Assembly: GCA_951406725.2 (NCBI GenBank)
Contig: OX597825.1
Coordinates: 39,618,001 to 39,682,000 of the forward strand
Reading direction: 5' to 3'
Source: Octopus vulgaris
Taxonomy: Eukaryota
DNA length: 64,000 nt
The notes beneath the pieces were generated by a model. That model had not been told where the DNA came from. It saw only the letters and a program-made list of their open reading frames with translations, and did no database searches. Shown one piece after another: positions 4,536-53,140 of the stretch. The translations under genes and the position numbers were made by a program. Position 1 is the stretch's first letter; each line of letters begins with the position of its first letter.

Positions 4536-5500
4536 CAAATCAAAAAAGGAAAATACGCACACTTACATAGTTTTAATATAATTTTTAATATATCGACCGG
4601 TTTTGCTATCGCTATTCATGATATTATATTTTACTTACTTGAATATATATTTTTTTCTTAAGAAGAAATTTTGTCCATGTTGTGTGTAATGAAATTCACG
4701 AGTGAATGACATCACAAGTACATATATAAAGGGAGGTAATTGGCTGTCGTTATTGTTATTGTTGTGGGTAAGGGACATATCTGTTCAGCTTTCGGTAATG
4801 GGAGGGGAATATATATGTTTACAGACAGAGACAAGTTTGAAAAACCTTGTTTAGTGAGGGGATTTATGTACAGTGATGTAATCGTGAATTAAAATATGTA
4901 AAAAGATAAAAGTTGTTTATGCGTGCATATTAAGACGTGTTTTGTATTTTTCACTGAAAAAAATGTCTTTATTTAAACATTCTAGTCGATAGATTGTGTG
5001 TTTGCACTGGTAGAAAAGGAAGACTGTGAAAATCTGTTTAATTTTATCTGTACATTTTTCTTTATGTTCACTGAGAGGAATTTGTCTGTATTGCGGGAAA
5101 CGGATTTGCTTCTTTATGTAGATTGGGTTTCTTTCTCAAGGTCATACTCGTTTGTCCAATATAGTTGTGTCCGCAACCCGAGCAGGTTATTACATAAATT
5201 AGGTTCTCAGAGGCACAAGTGAAACTAGTTTTAATTGTGAACCTCTGCCCTTATTTGAAAAGGAAATCCGAGCCTTCAAGCAGGTTGGGGCCGGTTCCAC
5301 AATTTGGGAGTCCACATTTTTCAACCCTTGGTTTCGTAGTTGTTTTGTAAAGCATTTGTTTGTAGTCTCTTTAGCGATTTGCCTTGTTATTTCTTTGCAT
5401 TTGATGAGTTTGTGTGTCTTCAGGATGTCGTTCATTTTCGGATTTCTTGTTCTGAAATCAAGAGTTTGCACAATAGTGCTAAATGCCTCACTGTTTCTGA
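4535..5500 (-). mobile_element. Penelope-like element 3' fragment (GIY-YIG endonuclease plus terminal repeat)
   Basis: The minus strand at ~5130-5200 translates IYVITCSGCGHNYIGQTSMTLRK (GIY-YIG). The terminal segment 4540-4730 recurs in opposite orientation at 58680-58875. Confidence 0.85.
4590..4624 (-). ncRNA. Minimal hammerhead-like motif, A3-U8 core variant (G12 mutated in this copy)
   Basis: Minus strand reads ATATC-ATGAATA-GC gata GC-AAAA-CCGG-TC-GATAT. Helix I is ATATC/GATAT and helix III is the palindrome ACCGGT. Confidence 0.5.
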
Positions 5501-13604: not shown

Positions 13605-14160
13605 AAAATAGTAAAAAGTGAAAAAACTACAGAAGGCTTGTTTTAAAAGGTTAAAAAATATATATTTGTGTCATTATGTCTGAAGAATGTTATAAATTTT
13701 GTTCATACAATGCCATAGTTTTTGAAGAAATGACCGGTTTCCCGTTCAGCTTTTCAAATTTTTTACATCGGTATGTTTATGTTGAGAAGTGTGAAGAGAG
13801 TTCCAGATAAGGGGAGGTAATAAGTGATTTCTTCTGGTGTAAGGGACGTAATCGCTTAATATTTCTTGCCTTTTTTCTGGAGTGAGTTTCTCTGTATAAG
13901 AATGTTGGAATCGTTAAGTTTGGGCTTGTATTTTTCAATGAAGAATGTTTCCTTGTTTAGTCTAATTTGTGTTGGTGTTCCGATAGCACATTGGTAAAAT
14001 GGAAAGATTAAAAGTTGTGGTAGTAGTTGCTTTGCGCATTTCTCAATGTGCTCAGTAAAGGGTATCATTCTGTATTCTGGGAATGCAATCTGTTGTCGAT
14101 GCAGTGTGCATCTACGTCTGAGTGATAGTCCCGTGGACCCCATGTAGTTTTGGTGGCAAT
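13605..14160 (-). mobile_element. Penelope-like 3' end (GIY-YIG C-terminus plus terminal repeat), inverted relative to the adjacent body
   Basis: ORF 13856-14143 reads (YM)GSTGLSLRRRCTLHRQQI...EH...KETFFIEKYKPKLN. It is a near-identical inverted copy of 15345-15700. Confidence 0.85.
13725..13763 (-). ncRNA. Minimal hammerhead motif, U3-A8 variant (helix II mutated)
   Basis: Minus strand reads AAAAAT-TTGAAAA-GC tgaac GG-GAAA-CCGG-TC-ATTTCT. Confidence 0.6.
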
Positions 14161-14164
14161 AATT

Positions 14165-15293
14165 GTGAAACCTAACAATGGGCTACCTGGAAATAATCAT
14201 TTACCAGGAATCTTTATCAATCTTTGGAAACCCCCTCTCTCAATACATAAAAGAGAATTGGAAACGATTCCTGGACGATTGTTTTATACTCTGGAATGAA
14301 AACACAGATAAACTCCTAAAATTCAAAAACCTATTGAACAGCACAAACCCAAATATACAGTTCACAATGGAATCCAAAAAAAGAGCGCCCATTTTTGGAT
14401 ATACTAATTTAAAAAATTAACCTTAAAATAGAAACAGACATTTTTTACCAAGCCACAGACGCCAAACAATACCTACTTTTTGATTCATGCCACCCAAGAT
14501 ACATTAACACACACATCCCCTTCAACCTTGCAAGAAGGATATGCACAATAGTGTCAGAACAAAATACCAGGAACTTTAGACTGCAAGAACTCAAAAACAC
14601 CCTAATTGACAGACATTACCCAGCTCAACTCATAGAGGATGGGATCAGACGTGCAACAGAAATTGACATAGAAACTTTAAGAAAAGTTCAACACAACAAC
14701 ACACATTCCCCGAAAATACTACCTTACATATCCACATACAACCCCAGAAACATAGAAGCCTTCACCATCATCACCCAGAATTTACCAATACTTCATAAGG
14801 ACCCCAAATTAAAGGAAATTCTAAACATACACCAAATCATTAAAAGCTACAAACAACCTAAATCACTTAAAAAGATTCTCACAAAGGCAAAATTGTTTTC
14901 TGAAATTACGGATACAAAAGTTCAAAAATGTGGTAGACTGAACTGTGCAACATGTCCAAACATGCTGAAGGATCAGAATTCACTCTTCAATGTCATGGAA
15001 AGACAGAAATTCACTAGTATCATAACTTTACTTGTGCCTTTCTCCTTTTTGAAAACATAATTTCATGTCATAAAACTGCTCGGGTCATGCCACTAGAATG
15101 AATCGACATGTGGGGTCCACGGATACTATGCGTTTACTTTTCTTTAGGTCTAGTAGATGCACACTTTGCCGAATCGACAACAGATTGCATTCCCAGAATA
15201 CAGAATGAACACCGCTCGTAGTGAGACACACACATTGACGTAAAAACTGCGCACACAGCACACACACACATATACACAATATATATATATATC

Positions 15294-19177: not shown

Positions 19178-21577
19178 CAGTAGTTTTATTTTTATACCGT
19201 GCTTTCACTTCACTACCGAGCGCAGCTCTGTGTGCCTTGAGTATGTGCTGTGATTTGTTGTGATGCTCTGGTGGTTATTGTATGGAAAGTGCTCTGCGTA
19301 GGATGTGTGCAGTGCCTAGTAGTGCAATTTTCTATATTTTATATGTGTTAGTAAGTCCTGGTAATTTTGTCATGTATTTGTCTGAGTATTTTTTTTATCA
19401 TGACTAATGCACCTACTATGATAGGAATTGTTTCTGATTTTAGATTCCACATTCTGATTACCTCTATTTCCAGGTCTTGGTATTTTAAGAGTTTCTCCAT
19501 TTCTTTTAGAGACACGTTGTCATCTGCCTGTATTTTTACGTCAATTAGAAAGCATTTTTTTCTTCATGATCTCTGACAACTATAAGTGGTCTGTTGGCCT
19601 TAATTTATCTATCTGTGTGTATCGGCATATCCCAGAGTATGGTTGCTTTCTCGTTTTCTGTGACCTTTACTGGTGTGTGCCTATACCATCTTTTTTCTGT
19701 TGTTATTCCATAATGTTGGCATAGCTTCCAATATATGTAGGTTCCAACTCTGTCATGTCTGTGAATATATTGCTTCTTAGCCAGGACTGGGCAGCTAGAG
19801 ATAATATGATTTATTGTTTCTTGTCCATCTCCACATATACTGCAGTTACTTGTTGTATTTCTTTTCATTACATAATTTTGGAAATTTCTGGTGGGAAGGC
19901 TTTGGTCTTGTGCTGCAATTAAAAATTTCTCTGTTCCTGCTTTGAGTCCTGAGCTTCCCAACCATTGCTGGGATTTTTCTTTGTCTATTTCTTTTGCGTT
20001 TACTTTAGTCCAGTATTTACTATGAAGGGGCTTTTCTTGCCATCGTTTTATCATGGTTCGTTGCTGTTTTATTTTTAGTTTGGATTTCATTTGTTTTATA
20101 GCTTTTGTTGTTTCTTCTTCTTCTTCTTTTCTTCTTCTTCTTCTTCTTCTTCTTCTTCTTCTTCTTCTTCTTCTTCTTCTTCTTCTTCTTCTTCTTCTTC
20201 TTCTTCTTCTTTCTATTTGTTAGGTGGTATGAATTCTTGTTTCTATTTGTCAGCTTCTTTAAATACTGAGAACAGTGTTTTGTTTTGCTCGTGTTTTGCC
20301 GCTATTTGTATCAGTTTACATTCCTTCTGAAGTAGATATTTTTACAGTCCTGTGGTGGTTATTTTATAATGGTTTTCCAGCTGTATAATGCCCCTACCAC
20401 CTTCTATACGTTGTATAGATAGCTTTTCTATGTCAGATGATGCATCCTAGATCCTGTCATTATTTTTCTGGTTTTCCTATCTATTTTAGTCAGTTCATTT
20501 AATGACCAGTTAAGGATATTGTAGCGGTAACTTATAACTGGGACAGCTAAAGTGTTAATACCTATTATCTTGTTTTTAGCATTGAGCTATGTTTTTAATA
20601 TTGATCTAACTCGTCTATAATATTCTTTTTTTATTTTCTCTTTCATTTGTGTGTGTTGTGTCTTATCTAGTTCATGGATTCCTAAGTATTTGTAAGTTTG
20701 GCTTTCGTCTAATTCTTTTATTTCATTGGTTTTATCTAGTGTGATGTTGCTACTCTTAACTAGTTTTCCTCTTTTTAGGGTTACTTTGGCGCATTTTTCT
20801 AATCCAAATTTCACATCTATTTCTTTGGTAAATCCATGAACTGTCTTTAATAGTGTTTCCAGCTGTTTGTCATTTGCAGCGTATAGTTTTAGGTCATCCA
20901 TATATTAAAGGTGGCTGATCGTTTTGCCGTAACATTTATATCCGCATCCAGTTCTATTTAGTATATCAGATAGGGTTGACAGTGTCAAGCAGAAAAGGAG
21001 TGGAGAGAGCGTCTCCCTGGAATATTCCTCGTCTAATGAGGATGTCTTTGGTTTTCATGAGTCCCTCTTTTGTTTGGAGCTGTAGCACTGTTTGCCATTT
21101 ATTCATAGAGTGCCCTATGAATTTCATGATTGTTGGTGCTACTTTGGTAATGGCTAGTGTTTCGAGGATCCATGTGTGGTGGATGCTATCAATTTTGTAG
21201 TCGATCCAGGCCATACTGAGGCCTTTCTTCTTTCTGTGGCTGTCTTCAATTATGGCTTTATTAATCATTAGTTGATCTTTACAGCCATATGAGCCTTTGC
21301 GGCATCCTTTCTGCTCTTCTGGGAACAGTTTGTTTTCGTGCAGGTGCTTGTTCAACCTTTGCGATATCACTGCAGTAAATACCTTGAACATAGTAAGGAG
21401 GCAGGTTATTGGTCTGTAGTGCTCTGGTTTTGCTGTCTCAATTGATTTGGGAATTAAGATGGTTTTCCCCTTCGTGAGCCATTCAGGCATTGTCTCAGGC
21501 TCTGCTAGAATGTTGTTAAAGTTTTCAGCCAACTTTTTGTGCATTCTTGTTAGATATTTCAACCAGTAGTTGGGGAT
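19178..21577 (-). mobile_element. R4/Dong-like non-LTR retrotransposon (RT, CCHC, restriction-like endonuclease), 5'-truncated and frameshifted
   Basis: RT motifs YRPITCL, EEQKGCRKG, GIFQGDALS and YMDDLKLY; CxxC...HIISSC zinc knuckle; RHDRV and WDMPIHTDR RLE motifs. Both ends abut (TAA)n. Confidence 0.9.
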
Positions 21578-21609
21578 CTTATTATTATTATTATCTTTAT
21601 TAATATTAT

Positions 21610-22414
21610 TATTCTATGTTTGACTTTTGCTTTATATTTGTACAAGTTTGCTCTAAGTCTCACCCAGATACCTCAAGAGACAACAGGGTTGGAAGTTCAT
21701 GTTGTTGTTATGCCTAGTGTGCCATATATTTGGGGGGTGGGGGTGTTGTACTGATGAATGTCTAAAAAAAGTTTGTTTTTTTTAAACCGAAAATTATGAT
21801 TCTTTTAAACCTTGAGATTACATAGAAAGTATTTTGCGTAGGATATGAGCAGTTCCCATGAGCACTATCTTTTGAATTTCTGCCATTTTTGGGTTTCCTG
21901 GTATCTGAGTTAGGTAGCTATCAGCCCCTTTTGCTATCATTCCCAGGGCACCTATGACAACAGGTATTGTTTTAGTCTTCAGGTTCCACATTTTGCTGAT
22001 TTCTATTTCAAGATCTTTATATTTGCTCAGTTTTTGCTAGGTCTTGACAGATACGTTTATATCTATTGGGACAGTCATATCAATGAGGAGGCATGTTCTT
22101 TGTTTGAAGTCTTTCAATATGATGTCTGGCCTATTTGCATCTATCTTTCTGTCAGTTTGAATGGTGAAGTTCCAGAGGAGTGAGATGTGGTCATTTTCAA
22201 GCACTGGGGGTGGTTTGTGTTCCCACCATTTTATTTTCATGGGGCAAATCCAGGTTTTTACAGATTACCCAGTGAATATATTGGGCAGCTCTATCGTGCC
22301 TGTTGAGATACTCTGTAGGCGCTAGATGACTGCTCTTGGAGACCACATGGTCAATGGTTTCATTTTGTTGCTTGCATACACGACACGTTGGACTGCTTCT
22401 GATCTTTAATATGT
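21610..22414 (-). mobile_element. R4/Dong-like LINE 3' fragment, second subfamily
   Basis: WNFTIQTDRKIDANRPDIILKD...LIDMTVP carries the RLE PD-(D/E) motif. The fragment is bounded by (TAA)n. Confidence 0.85.
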
Positions 22415-22427
22415 TATTATTATTATT

Positions 22428-22920
22428 ATTCAGTAGTTTTATTTTTATAGCGTGCTTTCACTTCACTACCGAGCACAGCTCTGTGTGCCTTGGGTATGTG
22501 CTGTGATTTGTTGTGATGCTCTGATTGTTATTGTATGGAAAGTGTTCTGCGTAGGATGTGTGCAGTGCCTAGTAGTGCAATTTTCTGTATGTTATATGTG
22601 TTTGTAAGTCCTGGTGTTTTTGTTATGTATTTGTCTGAATATATTTTTATCATGCCTAATGGACCTACTATGATAGGAATTGTTTCTGTTTTCAGATTCC
22701 ACATTCTACTGACCTCCATTTCCAGGTCTTTGTATTTTGAAAGTTTCTCCATTTCTTTTAGAGACACGTTGTCATCAGCCGGTATTGATACATCAATTAG
22801 AAAGCATTTTTTTTTTCTTCATGATCTCTGACAACTATATCTGGTCTGTTGGCCTTAATTTCTCTATCTGTGTGTATCGGCATATCCCAGAGTATGGTTG
22901 CTTTCTCGTTTTCTGTGACC

Positions 22921-22921
<1 letters not shown>
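22428..22921 (-). mobile_element. R4/Dong-like LINE 3' fragment
   Basis: Encodes KEMEKLSKYKDL...RMWNLKTETIPIIVG and has the same 3' UTR as the copy ending at 19178. It sits in (TAA)n. Confidence 0.9.
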
Positions 22922-22959
<38 letters not shown>

Positions 22960-22973
22960 CATTATGATTATTA

Positions 22974-23008
<35 letters not shown>

Positions 23009-23247
23009 GAGTGAGAGAGCAGTTCATGCCATCAAAGTGACACTGGGGTAAAATATACGAAGCCCAATATACCCATCATGACTACCCGTCTGATAAAGGT
23101 ACACCAGGCACATGCATCACAACCATATGTGCGCGACATGGTGATCTATTTTGACCTTGCAGGTGGGGCCCAGTTAGAATTTTCTTCAGGTTGAGTAGCC
23201 CATCCCGTTATCATTTATTTCAAACCCCATGGCTATATCATTTTGCT

Positions 23248-23590
<343 letters not shown>

Positions 23591-23791
23591 TTTATTTATT
23601 TCATCATTAACATAATCATCATCCCCTTCATGGTCCCAATATGGAAGCATTTATATCGATATATCAAATGTGTTTTACAAGGATTATATTCCACGTAAGC
23701 TGAATGTGTATTATACATACATGACTAATTGAAAAACACAATATTCGTTTCGTGTGCTATCACGTAATTATTTATTTATTTACGTCTTCCT

Positions 23792-23887
<96 letters not shown>

Positions 23888-23951
23888 ATTTTAATTATTA
23901 TTATTATCATTCAGTTATTATTATTATCATTATTATTATCATTTTTATTAT

Positions 23952-24623
23952 TATGTGCCTTGGGTATGTGCTGTGATTTGTTGTGATGCTCTGATGGTTA
24001 TTGTATGGAAAGTGTTCTGCGTAGGATGTGTGCAGTGCCTAGTAGTGCAATTTTCTGTATGTTATATGTGTTTGTAAGTCCTGGTGTTTTTGTTATGTAT
24101 TTGTCTGAATATTTTTTTATCATGCCTAATGCACCTACTATGATAGGAATTGTTTCTGTTTTCAGATTCCACATTCTAGTTACCTCTATTTCCAGGTCTT
24201 TGTATTTTGAGAGTTTCTCCATTTCTTTTAGAGACACGTTGTCATCTGCCGGTACTGATACATCAATTAGAAAGCATTTTTTTTCTTCATAGTCTCTGAC
24301 AACTATATCTGGTCTGTTGGCCTTAATTTCTCTATCTGTGTGTATCGGCATATCCCAGAGTATGGTTGCTTTCTCGTTTTCTGTGACCTTTTCTGGTGTG
24401 TGCCTATACCATCTTTTTTCTGTTGTTATTCCATAATGTTGGCATAGCTTCCAATGTATGTAAGTTCCAACTCTGTCATGTCTGTGAATATATTCCTTCT
24501 TAGCCAGGACTGGGCAGGTAGAGATAATATGATTTATTGTTTCTTGTCCATCTCCACATATTCTGCAGTTACTTGTAATATTTCTTTTCATTACATGTTT
24601 TTGGTAATTTCTGGTGGGGAGGC
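23952..24623 (-). mobile_element. R4/Dong-like LINE 3' fragment with open CCHC + RLE domain
   Basis: ORF 23998-24639 reads CRICGDGQETINHIISTC, RHDRV, NRPDIV, LIDVSVP, KEMEK. It is flanked by (TAA)n. Confidence 0.92.
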
Positions 24624-25333
24624 TTATTATTATTATCATTTTTATTATTATTATTATTATTATTATTACTGTTCTTCTGACTCTACTTTATCTCCTTCTT
24701 CTTCTTCTCCTTCTTCTTCTTCTCCTTCTTCTTCTTCTCCTTATTATTATTATAATTATTATTGTTGTTGTTGTTGTTGTTCTTGTTGTTCTTTCTGTTA
24801 ACATCATCAGCATCGTCATCATCATCATTATTATTATTGTTATTATTACTCATTGTTAATCGCATTTAGCTTCCAGAATTTGTCACAATGTAGTTTTAAC
24901 AGAGTATAGATGTCTGTTGAAATGTTAAGCAATGTTAAATACAAATTTTCAACTCTGGATTGTTCAAATTTCTTTTCCAATATTGATATTAGAAGTTTGT
25001 ATTTGGATTTCCTGCATTGTTGGAAGATGATTTTTTTCCCTTTCTGACATTTACCGCTTTGCTTCGTATTTGTTCGCAGCTTTGTTCCTTTTGAATTTAT
25101 TTTCATCACATATATTTCGAACACATTTCAGTTTTATTGAAGTTCAACTGATGAAAATATTTGCTATAAGTAAACAACAAATGCAATGATTATTAATTTA
25201 GATAAATAAACCAGCATATATCGTTGTTTTGCAATAATTTTGCTAAACTTTTTACTTCGATGTGTATTTACAAATAAATATTATTTTGCCGATTAAGAGA
25301 ATATGTTGTAGTTTAAATAAAAATGTCAGAATG

Positions 25334-28922: not shown

Positions 28923-28993
<71 letters not shown>

Positions 28994-29216
28994 TCTATAT
29001 CAAGGTAGCAAAATATTCAAGAGAAATTTTTCGCAACCAGCGGTCTAGTGAGAAAGAAAAAATAGTCAACAGACAAAATATAATGTACATTCAACAATAA
29101 TATTAAGGAATGGCCTTGATAGGCCATTCAACTCACTAAAACGAGCAGCCAAACTCAAACCACTAAATAGTATTAATTCAGAATTAAAGGAAAATTAAAA
29201 ACATTTACCCTTATCA

Positions 29217-29314
29217 TCTTTGGACTATGCATAGTTTCGACGTAGATCTTGGCAAACCAGCTTAAGTAAATTAAATTAAATCAATTTACCACTGACCCGT
29301 CTCATCAGCAAAGA
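29217..29314 (-). ncRNA. Type I hammerhead ribozyme, intact core
   Basis: Minus strand reads TCTTTG-CTGATGA-GACG(55 nt)CGTC-GAAA-CTATGCATAG-TC^CAAAGA. Confidence 0.88.
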
Positions 29315-29556
29315 AGCCAGGGGGAATATATATCCCACGAGGCAACAGCATCGATGCCTCGGGAATATATACTCTAAACTTTCTAATTCTACAGTCATCA
29401 CGCCAACTTATCAGCAGCAAATAAAAACTGCCGATTTAATTTCAGAATTAGCCAAAAAATCAATAATTAATCAATATCAGGGTAGCAAAAAATTCAAGAG
29501 AGATTTTTTCGGCACCAGCGGTATAGTGAGAAACAAAAAATAGTCAACAGACTTTA

Positions 29557-30818
29557 CGAGGGGCGTTCAATAAGTAATGCCCCTGACCCACTTCCCTTAG
29601 CAGTAGAGCAACGAAACTTGGCACAGTTATTAGTCTTTCTCTGCATAGGAACCACCCAGAGTTATGCATTTCTCCCATCGTTTGATGCAGCTCTGGAGAC
29701 CATTTTTGTAGAAGACCCCAGCTTGGTCCTCCAACCACGACGTGACTTCAGAAATCAAGGCTGCATCATCTGGGAAACGCTTTCCTTTCAAAAACAACTT
29801 CATGGCTGGGAAGAGGTGAAAATCAGAGGGTGCAAGGTCAGGAGAGTAGGGGGATGGGGGAGGATTCATAGCCGCACGCCTGTGCTTCTGATCTGGCGAC
29901 ACGCGAGTTGTGAACCGGAGCGTTGTCCTGCAGGAGGAGGATGCCTTTGCTGATCTTGCCCCGCCTCTTGATTTTGATAGCTTGTCTTAATTTCCTCAAA
30001 TGTGAAGCAGAATAGGATCCTGTAATTGTGTTACCCTTTGCCAGGAAATCTGTCATTACTACTTCGTCCTGGTCCCAGAAGACTGCACCCTTGCCTTCTT
30101 TAGAGGAGGTAAGTCACGGTGCTTCCACTGCATTGACTGGGCTTTGGTCTCTGGATCAAAGTGATGGACCCAGGTTTCATCCTGTATAATCAGTCTTTTG
30201 AAAAATTTTGACTCATCTTCTTGGCACATCTCCAAATTCATCCTCCAGGACCCGACGCGTTCTTGCTTCTGGAAAGGTGTGAGCAACCTGGGAATCCATC
30301 TGGCAGACACCTTTTGCATATGCAAATGGTCGTGAATGATAGTTTACACAGACCCGGTACTAATCTTGACCTCATGAGCTATTTGGTGAATAGTTATGCG
30401 TCGATTTTCCAAAATGGCAGCCTCAACTTGACAGACAGATGCCTCATCAATGGCAGAAGGGGGCGACCAGATCTGGGAGCTGTTTCCACAGAGTTCCGAC
30501 CATGTTTGAATTCACGATGCCAGCGTTTTACAAGGTCATATGATGGAGCATCATCACCATAAGTTACTTTCATTTCATCAAAAGTCTCCAGTTGTGTGCG
30601 TCCTTTCAAATACAAAAACCGGATCACTGCCCGACACTGAACAGGCTCCATTTCACACTTGACTCATTTCAAATACCTGTAAATCAAAAACCACAATTAG
30701 TTTAGAACTGTAATTTGCTACTTCATCTATAGAGATATAAATATTTGCACATGCAAAATTTCAACTAGATCAAACAAATGCAAGTGGGTCAGAGGCATTA
30801 CTTATTGAACGTCCCTCG
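29557..30818 (-). mobile_element. Full-length mariner transposon (1262 bp), frameshifted DD34D transposase
   Basis: TIRs cgaggggcgttcaataagtaatgcccctgacccactt / aagtgggtcagaggcattacttattgaacgtccctcg with TA on both sides. Motifs WIPRLL, QDETW, LQDNAP and YSPDLAPSDFHLF lie across ORFs from 30651 to 29630. Confidence 0.95.
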
Positions 30819-30957
30819 TATAATGTACATTCAACAATAATATTAAGAAATGGCCTTGATAGGCCATTCGACTCACTAAAACGAGCAGCCAAACTCAAAC
30901 CGCTAAATAGCATTAATTCAGAAACTAAAGGAAAATTAAAAACATTTACCCTTATCA

Positions 30958-31064
30958 TCTTTGGATTATGCATAGTTTCGACGTACATTTGGCAAACCAG
31001 CTTAAGTAAATTAAATTAAATTTAATTAAATCAATTTACCACTGGCCCGTCTCATCGGCAAAGA
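30958..31064 (-). ncRNA. Hammerhead motif, probably inactivated
   Basis: TCTTTG-CCGATGA-GACG...CGTC-GAAA-CTATGCATAA-TC-CAAAGA; U4>C and G16.2>A relative to 29217-29314. Confidence 0.75.
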
Positions 31065-31202
31065 AGCCAGGGGGAATATATATTTTCCACGAGGCAACAG
31101 CATCGATGCCTCGGCAATACATACTCTAAACTTTCAAAATCTACCGTCATCGCGCCAACTTATCAGCAGCAAATATAAACTGCCGATTTAATTTCAGAAT
31201 TA

Positions 31203-31271
<69 letters not shown>

Positions 31272-31281
31272 ATATGATATG

Positions 31282-33849: not shown

Positions 33850-35400
33850 GGAATGTTAACAAAAACAAGACGCAGACATGTGGTGTAGACAACGAAAAAT
33901 GTATTAGTTTAACGCTCGGGAATTGAAAAGGTCTTTAATGTTTCGAGCCGACGCTCTTCCACAGAATGGAACACAGAAAGAAACAGGTAAATAAAATAAA
34001 GAATGGGTAGTGGCTAGCGATCTCCCATGGTGAATGGTTGACAGAGGGGTCGCACAGGAGAGCTAGGAAGAGGGGGAGATAATAAAGTGGTGGAGATCAC
34101 AATACGAAGGCCGGCGTGTGTGTATATAACAGCATGTATGTGCCTGTGGAAGAGGACTGGTGATCTTGACGTGTGCGTGTGTGCATGTGTATTTGTGTGG
34201 GCGCTGGTGTGGGGCTAAGAAGTGGTCAGTGCTAGTGTGTACGTGGTGCTGATGTAAAGTGGTATTGTGTGAGATGGTGGTGAGTGGTGTGGTGGTGTAT
34301 GGTGTGTGGTGTTGTTAGGACGTGGGGGACTTAAGTGAAGGGAAAGCAAGGGTGGGGTGTAGTTTAGGCTGAGGGTGGGGTATATGGGAGTTGGTGTAAT
34401 GGATGGATAGGGAAGTTGGGGTTGGATTGTGTAGGGGTGATGTTACAATGGAGGGGTGAAAATGAAAGAAGAGTGGAATGGGAGAAGGTGAGTAGGAGTG
34501 AAGAGAAGAGAGAAGGAGGGCAGGAGTGAAGAGAAGATGTTGGAGTCGGAGCAAGTGAGGAGAGGTGGGTGGGAGGAAGTATATGTGAGAGGAAAAGAGG
34601 AGAGGGGAGGAGAGTTAGATGAAGCGGGGAGGAGAGTTGAGCCCATGTGGGGCAAAAGAGCGAAGATAGAAAACTAATCTCCGTTCACAGCTAAGACGGG
34701 ATTACAGATGACCCCTGTGCAAGAATAATCCGAACACAGACAAGTGTTGCAAAGAAAGACCAGTAGAGCGGAAGTGGCGTGAGACCGTGGTGCCATTGCC
34801 GAGTCGGGTGCCTCGTAGGTGTTCTGCGAATCGGTTAGCCAAGCTGCGTCCCGTTTGCCCGATATATAGAGAAGGGCAGAGAGAGCGCGAGATGCAGTAG
34901 ATGACATTGCTAGGAGTGCAGGTGAAGCAGTTGGTTATATGATAGGTTCGATGATAGGTGCCGGTGAGGAGAGTGGTATTGGAGAGGTAAGGACAAGTGC
35001 AGCAGCGTGGGCGGGAGCAGGGGAACGAGCCGGGTTGGGAGATTAGGTTAGGGAAGAGACTGTGGACCAAGAGGTCTTGTAGGTTGTGGGCACGTTTGAA
35101 GGAGGGGAGGGTCCAGTTAGGGAAGATGTGCAAAGTGGAGCGGTCGAACTGGAGTCGCCAGAAGGCTCGAAGAATGGTGCGTTGGGAGATGAGGAGAAAC
35201 GGGAGGCGGGGGATGTCGCGGTGGGTGCGGTGGCAAGGGCTGATGCACGGTCCACGGAAGTGCTCTAGCAAAGGCGGTGTGAATAGTGGTGAGGGGGATA
35301 GCCATGTAGGATGAAGCGGTGAAGTTATGAACAGATAGAAGAGACGGGCTATAATTACTTGGAGATTGTGGTGAATAAGAAAGAAAGAACATGCATGATT
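33850..35400 (-). mobile_element. Penelope-like element 3' fragment (GIY-YIG)
   Basis: ORF 34702-35457 reads FKRAHNLQDLLVHS, CSRPRCCTC, NVIYCIS..LCPSLYIGQTGRSLANRFAEH. A long pyrimidine-rich 3' region follows on the minus strand. Confidence 0.88.
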
Positions 35401-35454
35401 ACCGACATAGCATGCCCCGATGACAACAGGATCAATGTGTAAGATGAAAAAAAA

Positions 35455-36012
<558 letters not shown>

Positions 36013-49960: not shown

Positions 49961-50015
49961 TTATATATATATATATAAATATATGTATGTATGTATATAT
50001 ATGTATATAAAAATA

Positions 50016-50137
50016 CAGTGTACATTTAAACACATAATAGATGTCCATAACAGGACATCTGACTCGCTAGAAAAAAGTAGTTAAACTACAACCCTATAAT
50101 AGTTGTAATAGACACTTATGTGCTTAAATGTACACTG
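50016..50137. mobile_element. Tiny Tc1-type MITE
   Basis: TA|CAGTGTACATTTAAACACATAA ... TTATGTGCTTAAATGTACACTG|TA. Confidence 0.7.
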
Positions 50138-50236
50138 TATTTTAATATGAATAATATATAGTCTATTGACTAGCTTTTTCTTCTCGCTAGACCACTGGTA
50201 GCAAAGACATTTTCTAAATTTTCCTGCCATCCTAAG

Positions 50237-50302
<66 letters not shown>

Positions 50303-51572: not shown

Positions 51573-51594
51573 ATATATATATATACAACAATTT

Positions 51595-52261
51595 ATCTTT
51601 CAATTTCAGAATTACTACTATTTAGCGGTTTGAGTTTGGCTGCTCTTTCTAGTGTGCCGAATGGCCCATTATGGCCATTCCTTATATTGTTGAATGTATA
51701 TTATATAGTCTTTGACTATCTTTTCTCTCTCACTAGACCGCTGGTAGGGGATAATTTTTTTCTAGAATTTTTTGCTACTCTTATATTTATTAATTAATGA
51801 TTTTTTGGCTAATTTTGAAATTAAATCGGCAGTTTATATTTGCTGCTGAGAAGACCGCGCGGTGGCTGTGGATTTTGAAGATTTAGAGCATATAGACTGG
51901 AGGCTACTTTACCATCGCCTCGTGGATATATACTCATCCTCGGCTTCTCTGCTGACGAGACACGGCAGTTGTAAATAAATTTAATTTAAATTAATTAATT
52001 TGTTTTCCAAAGTTTGTCGAAACTATGCATAGTCCAGAGATGAATGGGATAAACGTTTTTATTTCTCTTTCAATTTCAGAATTACAACTATTTAGCGGTT
52101 TGAGTTTGGCTGCTCTTTCTAGTGAGTCGAATGGCCTATTATGGCCATTCCTTATATTGTTGAATGTATATTATATAGTCTTTGACTATCTTTTCTTTCT
52201 CACTAGACCGGTGGTAGCGGATAATTTTTTCTAGAATTTTTTGCTACCCTTATATTTATTA

Positions 52262-52262
<1 letters not shown>
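51595..52262 (+). mobile_element. ~1.4 copies of a 470-bp hammerhead-bearing repeat (retrozyme-like)
   Basis: caatttcagaattac occurs at 51601 and 52071 (period 470). Homologous to 28991-31205 and flanked by (TA)n. Confidence 0.8.
51946..52040 (+). ncRNA. Type I hammerhead ribozyme, intact core
   Basis: TCTCTG-CTGACGA-GACA...TGTC-GAAA-CTATGCATAG-TC^CAGAGA. Confidence 0.88.
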
Positions 52263-52292
<30 letters not shown>

Positions 52293-52582
52293 AATGTATA
52301 TTATATAATTGTTGAATATTATATTATATTGTTGAATGTATATTATATAATTGTTGAAATTATAATTCATATCTCTCTATTTAATGCCTCGGATTTTACC
52401 GAAAAAAAGCATGTTGTTTGCTGATTTTAACCCACGCTGGTGGAAGGGGGAGAGCAGAAATTCTTCGCTTGCATGTTCGAATTTGCTGGCACTGTTAGTT
52501 TCGAGTAGATCTTCGGAGACGATGGGAAGCCGAAAAGGTATGCTCCTACTTTCAGTGTTTTCAAATCCAAACCAGGGAGTTC

Positions 52583-52634: not shown

Positions 52635-53140
52635 AATAACCTTTGCATTTGATTTTTTAATGTTTCTACCCTCATACTTTCGTGAGTTGAATTGAGCAAA
52701 CACTTTACGAGAGAGATTTTCTTTAAGTATTGGAAATAGTTTTTAAAAAAGTTTTTTTAGCTGCTATTTCTAATGAGTTCAGTATGCGGCAAAGTAATTT
52801 ATTTTACTAAGCCCTTTTATATAATGTAATAATTTGAATTCGCCTTAAATGGTCCCTTTGCATACTGAATACTTGGTGAAATTGATTAATTAATTAATTT
52901 TACCCTCAATTGTTGAAATTATAATTCATATCTCTCTATTTAATGCCTCGGATTTTACCGAAAAAAAGCATGTTGTTTGCTGATTTTAACCCACGCTGGT
53001 GGAAGGGGAGAGCAGAAATTCTTCGCTTGCATGTTCGAATTTGCTGGCACTGTTAGTTTCGAGTAGATCTTCGGAGACGATGGGAAGCCGAAAAGGTATG
53101 CTCCTACTTTCAGTGTTTTCAAATCCAAACCAGGGAGTTC

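What the first reader, a model, noticed from the sequence alone, without database searches (positions are those of the whole stretch)
29217..29314. Intact hammerhead ribozyme supported by compensatory changes in a second copy within the window
Seen: the minus strand reads TCTTTG-CTGATGA-GACG...CGTC-GAAA-CTATGCATAG-TC^CAAAGA. The diverged homolog at 51946-52040 reads TCTCTG-CTGACGA-GACA...TGTC-GAAA-CTATGCATAG-TC^CAGAGA. Both strands of helix I (TTT/AAA to TCT/AGA) and helix II (GACG/CGTC to GACA/TGTC) change together, while the core differs only at the free N7 position. Established: this is the type I HHR consensus, and a palindromic helix III (ACTATGCATAGT) marks HHRs that fold as dimers. Inference: the fold has been selected for self-cleavage. 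The ~52-55-nt AT-rich helix II extension is long for this class.
Basis: partly seen in the sequence, partly recalled or inferred. Interest (0 to 1): 0.9.

Follow-up and report, generated by a model that had tools for sequence, protein, structure and literature searches.

The report
Long-armed hammerhead in mini Penelope-type element
This is a real self-cutting hammerhead RNA motif, with an unusually long second arm, carried by a short jumping element that has hundreds of copies in this animal genome and appears to borrow the enzymes of Penelope-type retrotransposons; it is a new variant of a known kind, not a host gene element.

Summary
The motif is there: a type I hammerhead at 29217-29314 (-), cut site 3' of C29223. 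The second copy lies on the plus strand, and a third copy sits at 30958-31064 (-). All belong to a ~470-480-bp non-coding repeat (494 exact motif matches genome-wide, 0 in control). Across subfamilies only 63-96% alike, helices I and II covary while the core holds, so the fold was selected in the replicating elements. The copies show Penelope-like (PLE) insertion marks: (TA)n targets, two fixed 3' ends, partial tandems, inverted 5' arms, no ORF. The 40-73-nt helix II is a short stem, an internal loop and an AU-rich hairpin; that loop may pair with the helix I loop. Hydra-clade PLEs of this genome carry hammerheads with equally long helix II, and are the likeliest helper. Corrections: this copy's subfamily has U4C (31 of 32 copies), so its canonical core is probably a CpG mutation; helix III can fold as a monomer; no sign of cleavage in vivo was found. 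Rfam misses the motif. Verdict: new variant of the known PLE/retrozyme hammerheads.

The parts
29217..29314 (-). Type I hammerhead, copy 1 (subfamily A); cut predicted 3' of C29223; carries U4 where its subfamily has C4
29239..29301 (-). Long helix II: 4-bp stem IIa (29301-29298 with 29242-29239), internal loop, AU-rich distal hairpin
29292..29296 (-). Helix II loop strand of the proposed loop-loop pairing (GUCAG here, GCCAG in the subfamily)
   Evidence: pairing is inferred
29316..29320 (-). Helix I loop strand of the proposed loop-loop pairing (CUGGC); a distal helix I closes beyond it with 29211-29208
29224..29235 (-). 12-nt palindromic helix III: 4 bp plus UGCA loop as a monomer, 12 bp as a dimer
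29075..29552 (-). One full 478-bp unit of the non-coding element
28989..29074 (-). ~87-nt 'tail' (repeat of the unit's first part) forming the long 3' end; holds the motif that resembles Hydra PLE tails
28923..28990 (.). (TA)n tract at the 3' end of the insertion
29557..30818 (-). Mariner-type DNA transposon (TIRs, TA duplication at 29555-29556 and 30819-30820) that split one head-to-tail insertion into copies 3 and 1; family label from motifs recalled, not from a library call
30819..31206 (-). 5'-truncated upstream unit (copy 3) of the same insertion; hammerhead at 30958-31064 with C4 and a G-to-A change in helix III; (TA)n at 31206-31280
51946..52040 (+). Type I hammerhead, copy 2 (subfamily B1); C17 = 52034; a private change (GGCAG) breaks the proposed loop-loop pairing
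51591..52263 (+). Second insertion: 113-nt partial unit, full 470-bp unit (51704-52173), ~90-nt tail, then (TA)n
50013..50240 (.). Short inverted pair of fragments of another subfamily, without the hammerhead, ending in (TA)n

Best explanation
The hammerhead belongs to a ~470-480-bp non-autonomous element that is copied by the reverse transcriptase-endonuclease of a Penelope-like element (PLE), most likely of the Hydra clade. Shown: a non-coding head-to-tail unit, hundreds of dispersed copies in several subfamilies, PLE-type insertion structure, and a covarying hammerhead fold with a long two-part helix II. Inferred: a tandem master copy is transcribed; the PLE protein nicks (TA)n DNA and starts reverse transcription inside the RNA at one of two sites, about 145 or 230-265 nt past the cut site, giving the two 3' ends, 5' truncation, partial tandems and inverted arms. 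The template must be an uncut multimer or a religated circle, since most copies run through the cut site. The ribozyme most likely cuts slowly or with protein help, releasing unit-length RNA from tandem transcripts. Its helix II loop (GCCAR) probably pairs with the helix I loop (YUGGC) at the spacing where hammerheads make their loop-loop contact, with the AU-rich hairpin as a free-length appendage. About 0.85 for PLE dependence, 0.55 for Hydra as helper, 0.7 for retained cleavage, 0.45 for the loop-loop pairing.
For: 494 exact motif matches, 0 in the reversed control. Among 34 aligned copies, 93.9% of cells pair, 0 of 500 shuffles reach that, and 4 of 6 helix I pairs change on both sides. In 102 copies sorted into 8 groups (63-96% alike) pairs I.1, I.3, I.4, I.5, II.2 and II.4 swap as pairs; 107 of 227 columns vary between group majorities, none in the GAAA-helix III-UC box (partly selected for). 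Copies found by DNA outside the ribozyme keep an intact core in 17 of 21 placeable cases. Of 87 copies, 17 end at +131 to +154 and 61 at +207 to +271 from the cut, 78 end in a TA run and 43 have an inverted 5' arm; these are the PLE marks described in PMC8557442 and PMC11167929. No PLE ORF runs into the element in 20 loci with about 6 kb upstream. Hydra-type PLEs here (775-aa ORF with RT and C-terminal GIY-YIG-like domain; young copies) carry a hammerhead with a 55-56-nt helix II in 40 of 47 ORF ends examined (35, 5 more), also with two 3' ends and (TA)n targets; one family also has C4. A model built only from the short element ranks the Hydra hammerhead as best non-family hit in 4 of 5 Hydra loci, E 0.0007-0.05.
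Against: No direct parent was found: the element aligns to Hydra 3' regions no better than shuffles in most of 20 comparisons; only subfamily A against one Hydra family reaches 2-3 of 200 shuffles, over a 35-nt tail motif. Neptune-like PLEs also abound at (TA)n here. The model hits on Hydra are weak and rest mostly on the core. No cleavage evidence: 5' ends lie at the cut site in 4 of 57 A/B copies and 1 of 36 Hydra copies. Subfamily A has fixed U4C, described as lowering activity in vitro. The loop-loop pairing has no pair changed on both sides against the commonest type, has a C-A mismatch in subfamily B1 and in half of D2, and the same bases can form a core-trapping hairpin instead. Related copies are not independent, so shuffle counts overstate significance.
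Confidence: 0.72

Rival explanations
1. The hammerhead fold is kept as a structure that the PLE protein recognises, or as a weak relic, and cleavage is not what was selected.
For: U4C is fixed in subfamily A and in the youngest Hydra family. No excess of 5' ends at the cut site. In a lizard PLE, ribozyme mutants did not affect insertion in vitro and no reads ended at the cut site. 8 of 9 frog retrozyme dimers did not cleave in vitro.
Against: The catalytic positions and the cleavable position 17 stay fixed across groups 63-96% alike while helices covary; U4C is reported to keep enough activity in a viroid; the lizard PLE ribozyme does cleave when protein is added.
Confidence: 0.2
2. The helper is a Neptune- or Naiad-type PLE rather than Hydra.
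For: Such elements also prefer (TA)n; Neptune-like fragments are common here and lie near several copies. Some Naiads have hammerhead half-cores with 35-50-nt spacing.
Against: The one Neptune-like 3' region read shows, by eye, only a short hammerhead-like motif, and the model finds no long-arm hit there besides the element itself. The helix III motif is absent from the published Naiad and Hydra consensus files, and two cephalopod Naiad 3' ends read by eye do not resemble the element.
Confidence: 0.25
3. The unit is the orphan terminal repeat of an autonomous PLE that I did not find, not a self-standing element.
For: PLE insertions are mostly 5'-truncated, so solo 3' ends are expected; only about 100-200 of at least several hundred copies were read.
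Against: Tandem copies join the unit's end to its own start after 470-480 bp, which leaves no room for an ORF; at least 8 subfamilies have evolved in this form; nearby Hydra ORFs are separated by (TA)n and unrelated DNA.
Confidence: 0.08
4. This particular copy is a host-adopted ribozyme whose canonical core was restored by selection.
For: It is the only one of 32 subfamily A copies with U4.
Against: The change is a CG-to-TG transition, one of several between copy 1 and its tandem partner (17 differences in 367 nt); the copy is 6.7% from the subfamily majority and its insertion was split by a transposon.
Confidence: 0.02

Closest known systems
Metazoan non-LTR retrozymes (PMC7229834; bioRxiv 10.64898/2026.07.22.740005)
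   Same: Non-coding units of a few hundred bases with one type I hammerhead, low GC, head-to-tail arrangement, self-paired circular fold (z about -4), proposed dependence on PLEs.
   Different: Unit is slightly longer than the 150-450 bp described; mostly dispersed 1-2-unit insertions at (TA)n with PLE tails and inverted arms rather than long arrays; helix II is 40-73 nt; no circular RNA shown; no sister PLE terminal repeat found, unlike the frog families.
Hammerheads in PLE pseudo-LTRs (PMC4209133)
   Same: Type I topology, palindromic helix III, extra base between positions 9 and 10.1 in some subfamilies, copies in opposite orientation a few hundred bases apart.
   Different: Described PLE hammerheads have helix II of about 6-8 bp and little or no helix III; here helix II is a two-part arm and helix III has 4 bp.
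Hydra-clade PLEs (PMC8557442)
   Same: (TA)n target, 3' hammerhead, tail, tandem and inverted copies. The autonomous elements found here fit by motifs (RW-, DKT, CxxC, CxH, under 3 kb).
   Different: The short element encodes nothing. Published Hydra hammerheads have short helix II (table read); those found here have 55-57 nt. The longest listed there are two spike-moss PLE-X motifs marked as deviating.
Pseudoknot-stabilised hammerheads (PMC3088659)
   Same: Base pairing between the helix I and helix II regions in place of the usual non-canonical contacts.
   Different: Here both partners would be internal loops of a repeat-type animal hammerhead; untested.
MRC1 and other non-autonomous Chlamys elements (passage in PMC8557442)
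   Same: Non-autonomous PLEs with pseudo-LTRs and head-to-tail insertions.
   Different: Algal, without canonical hammerheads, and generally similar to their helpers at the 3' end, which is only weakly so here.

Membership tests
Type I hammerhead ribozyme | Core CUGANGA, GAAA and UH around three helices, helix I open | tested here: met
   for both window copies; subfamily A and one Hydra family carry the U4C variant
Type I hammerhead ribozyme | Helices supported by covariation | tested here: met
   helix III nearly invariant, with a few paired changes
Type I hammerhead ribozyme | Match to an Rfam hammerhead model | tested here: not met
   no hammerhead family among the matches; the long helix II is the likely cause (inference)
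Type I hammerhead ribozyme | Loop 1-loop 2 tertiary contact | tested here: inconclusive
   5-bp complementarity, 87% of cells paired, three pair types at one position, mismatches in two subfamilies
Type I hammerhead ribozyme | Site-specific self-cleavage | not testable with these tools
   Needs a bench assay; the genomic proxy (5' ends at the cut site) gave no clear signal
Dimer-dependent hammerhead | Palindromic helix III | tested here: met
   12-nt palindrome, duplex -15.9 kcal/mol; one further subfamily copy has a non-palindromic helix III (L287)
Dimer-dependent hammerhead | Helix III too short (1-2 bp) to form in a monomer | tested here: not met
   4 bp plus tetraloop; the full hammerhead fold is within about 1-3 kcal/mol of the minimum for most subfamilies, though the isolated hairpin does not fold
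Non-LTR retrozyme | Short non-coding repeat with a type I hammerhead in each unit | tested here: met
Non-LTR retrozyme | Tandem copies with two complete hammerheads | tested here: met
   Same-strand pairs one unit apart in L046 and L081, and window copies 3 and 1 before the mariner; most insertions hold one
Non-LTR retrozyme | Abundant circular RNA | not testable with these tools
   Only contigs were on offer
Non-autonomous Penelope-like element | 5' truncation, partial tandems, inverted 5' arms, optional tail | tested here: met
Non-autonomous Penelope-like element | (TA)n target as in Hydra, Naiad and Neptune | tested here: met
   78 of 87 copies end in a TA run
Non-autonomous Penelope-like element | Sequence shared with an autonomous PLE's terminal repeat | tested here: inconclusive
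   Only a ~35-nt tail motif near chance level and weak model hits
tRNA-derived SINE | Polymerase III A/B boxes and tRNA-like head | not tested
   No dedicated scan; Rfam found no tRNA match in the window; the insertion structure is PLE-like

The most novel reading that the evidence does not exclude
A distinct hammerhead architecture, with a 40-73-nt two-part helix II whose internal loop base-pairs with the helix I loop, is shared in outline by Hydra-clade PLEs and their non-autonomous passengers, is invisible to Rfam and to standard descriptors, and may account for some PLE families reported to have only 'half' hammerhead cores. The same pairing could first trap the core in an off hairpin until the PLE protein refolds it. 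The element would also be a retrozyme whose insertions carry the full PLE signature, tying the two kinds together by mechanism rather than by sequence likeness.
Probability: 0.3. Interest if true: 0.7.

Novelty: new variant of a known kind. Interest (0 to 1): 0.5.

Why it matters
Hammerheads in PLEs and retrozymes are known, but what they do in transposition is open. This genome holds a young, ORF-intact Hydra-type PLE and a 470-bp passenger with natural variants (U4 or C4, different arm lengths, loop-pairing intact or broken), a ready set for testing whether cleavage, dimer folding or protein help matters. The long helix II shows that descriptor- and Rfam-based counts miss whole families, so statements that some PLE clades lack hammerheads need rechecking with long-arm searches.

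Tried and rejected
Rfam scans: no hammerhead match. Pfam on three Hydra-type proteins: 0 families. Nearby PLE ORFs as the element's own coding part: rejected, they are separate insertions behind (TA)n. Deletion derivative of the Hydra families found: not supported. 5' ends at the cut site as proof of cleavage in vivo: no excess in A/B (4 of 57) or Hydra (1 of 36); subfamily D shows 10 of 41 arms from 7 insertions, but 5 of the 7 are inverted junctions at a local hairpin and the query began at +5, so I do not count it; the D figures were mis-anchored and replaced. Genome-wide pattern for the loop-loop pairing: 695 matches against 6, but 12 of 15 divergent hits read had no full hammerhead, so the count is inflated by unrelated repeats and is not used; the other 3 were further subfamilies of the element. 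Expression: no RNA holder listed; contigs of four coded runs from three organism labels cover the element, which shows presence only. Priming by homology to the (TA)n target: considered, since both 3' ends fall at AT-rich sites, but not testable here and not what was found for the lizard PLE. Earlier scan notes: none for this genome or sequence. Literature searches for an existing description found none of this element; subscription papers, Repbase and Dfam entries and bioRxiv supplements were not visible.

Full report
Observation. The minus strand at 29217-29314 reads as a complete type I hammerhead with the cut 3' of C29223. The homolog at 51946-52040 is on the plus strand. A descriptor scan finds only these two sites in 64 kb, against a mean of 0.02 in 100 shuffles. 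A third copy at 30958-31064 (-) has C at core position 4 and a broken helix III pair. Rfam reports no hammerhead, and folding energy alone is unremarkable.

The carrier. The motif sits in a 470-480-bp AT-rich unit. In the window, copies 3 and 1 are one head-to-tail insertion later split at a TA by a 1,262-bp mariner-type transposon (family label recalled). Copy 2 is a partial unit, a full unit and a ~90-nt tail before (TA)n. The window lies in a 2.8-Gb genome, G000; no call established the host, and my guess of a cephalopod is recalled and served only to choose literature terms. A pattern spanning both core boxes has 494 exact matches and 0 in the control; DNA searches had 1,145-2,561 first-look candidates, which are not copy numbers. 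No PLE ORF runs into the element in 20 diverse loci with about 6 kb upstream or in 60 loci with 1.5-kb flanks (that output and one search were partly cut). Of 87 copies found with DNA downstream of the cut site, 17 end at +131 to +154 and 61 at +207 to +271, 78 end in a TA run and 43 have an inverted 5' arm. These are the PLE marks given in PMC8557442 (passages, section 11, supplement parts 1, 2 and 24); PMC11167929 (parts 1-2 of 4) ties the tail to two internal start sites of reverse transcription.

Selection on the fold. In 34 aligned copies 93.9% of cells pair, no shuffle of 500 reaches this, slid controls give 24-43%, and 4 of 6 helix I pairs change on both sides (helix IIa was left out because the aligner put it out of register, and one row was cut short). 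Anchored counting on 102 copies, in 8 groups of which several are not single clades, shows paired swaps at I.1, I.3, I.4, I.5, II.2 and II.4; group majorities are 63-96% alike and 107 of 227 columns vary, none in the GAAA-helix III-UC box. That box was partly selected for, so I also took 38 copies found without the ribozyme: 17 were truncated or unplaceable, and 17 of the other 21 had an intact core. Core positions differ from the majority at 1.6% and 2.3% of cells in families A and B, flanks at 5.4% and 7.6%. Copies are related, so these figures overstate independence, but the pattern is that of master elements that kept the fold while the flanks drifted.

This copy's core. In subfamily A, 31 of 32 copies have C4; only the window copy has U4, while 34 of 35 placeable B copies have U4. 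Copy 1 differs from its tandem partner at 17 of 367 positions, several of them CG to TG, including this one. Its canonical core is therefore most likely an accident of decay. PMC3088659 (passages) notes that U4C lowers activity in vitro but suffices for a viroid.

The long helix II. The stretch between the core boxes is 40-73 nt and folds as a 4-5-bp stem, an internal loop and an AU-rich hairpin of free length. The loop's 5' strand, GCCAR, is complementary to YUGGC in the helix I internal loop, each at the distance from the core where hammerhead loops normally meet (6 and 4 bp). Support is modest: 87% of cells pair, the outer pair is C-G, U-G or U-A by subfamily and C-A in none of 102 copies, but B1 and half of D2 carry a mismatch and the inner pairs hardly vary. 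The same bases can close a hairpin over the core. Helix III is a 12-nt palindrome, yet forms 4 bp in a monomer, more than the 1-2 bp of dimer-dependent forms in PMC4209133 (parts 1-2 of 4).

The likely helper. Next to some copies lie PLEs with RT and a C-terminal endonuclease. One family has a 775-aa ORF, 95-100% identical among the 150 best matches, with Hydra motifs as listed; feature neighbours include GIY-YIG proteins (a lead only). In 40 of 47 ORF ends examined (one locus counted twice) the 3' region holds a hammerhead with 55-56 nt between the boxes, and a third, decayed family has 57 nt. They too end at two sites before (TA)n; the young family has C4; their helix III stays palindromic through a paired change. 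Published Hydra hammerheads are short-armed. A model built from the short element ranks these motifs first in 4 of 5 Hydra loci, weakly. Against: sequence likeness is near chance except for a 35-nt tail motif, the Hydra motifs lack the GCCAR loop, and Neptune-like PLEs are also common. No parent element was found.

Does it cut? Not shown. Copy 5' ends are not enriched at the cut site in A/B or Hydra, and the excess in D is confounded. Most copies run through the site, so the template was uncut or religated. This matches the lizard PLE, whose ribozyme needs protein and is dispensable for insertion in vitro, and frog retrozymes, of which 1 of 9 cleaved (bioRxiv 10.64898/2026.07.22.740005, parts 1-3 of 5). 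The unit folds well as a circle (z -4.3 and -3.9 against 40 shuffles), as retrozyme RNAs do (PMC7229834, parts 2-3 of 6).

Novelty and verdict. PLE hammerheads, retrozymes and their proposed link are in print. Six searches and passages of PMC13725137 and PMC13282606 showed no description of this element or of a 40-70-nt helix II in animal PLEs; 'long helix II' there means 6-8 bp. Repeat libraries, subscription papers and bioRxiv supplements were not visible and may list the family. It works like a PLE-dependent retrozyme and is best filed as a new variant of that kind.

Noticed in passing
G000:C5:2191500-2199500 (L113), also L114-L116: Young Hydra-type PLE with intact 775-aa ORF, pseudo-LTRs and a long-arm U4C hammerhead; 17,575 first-look candidates for its endonuclease part; a candidate active element.
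   Followed up: partly
L117-L148: Second Hydra-type lineage, 74-100% protein identity among 150 matches, whose helix III varies among CAUAUG, CAUGUG and CACGUG, keeping self-complementarity; supports dimer folding in that lineage.
   Followed up: partly
L018:1300-1345 (approximate): Neptune-like 3' region with what looks by eye like a short hammerhead carrying the U3-A8 core variant.
   Followed up: no
window 52272-52364: Directly after copy 2's (TA)n, about four repeats of a 22-nt piece that matches the element's short 3' end, as if reverse transcription restarted several times.
   Followed up: no
window 52349-52420 and 52908-52979: Exact duplication of at least 72 bp about 560 bp apart, next to copy 2.
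   Followed up: no
window 29321-29373 (-): GC-rich hairpin just upstream of the hammerhead; similar hairpins occur in the other subfamilies.
   Followed up: no
window 4920-5498, 13913-15060, 34702-35457: Fragments of Neptune-like PLEs (GIY-YIG and RT pieces), including an inverted pair near 13.9-15.0 kb.
   Followed up: no
window 19605-24687: Broken non-LTR retrotransposon ORF on the minus strand, interrupted by trinucleotide tracts.
   Followed up: no
L277, L278, L287: Further subfamilies of the element with GUA cut triplet or altered helix III, one of them not palindromic.
   Followed up: partly
PMC8557442 methods and File S1: Eight Naiad families are listed with hammerhead 'half cores' 35-50 nt apart; long-arm hammerheads could explain some. 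Two cephalopod 3' ends read by eye gave no clear case.
   Followed up: partly
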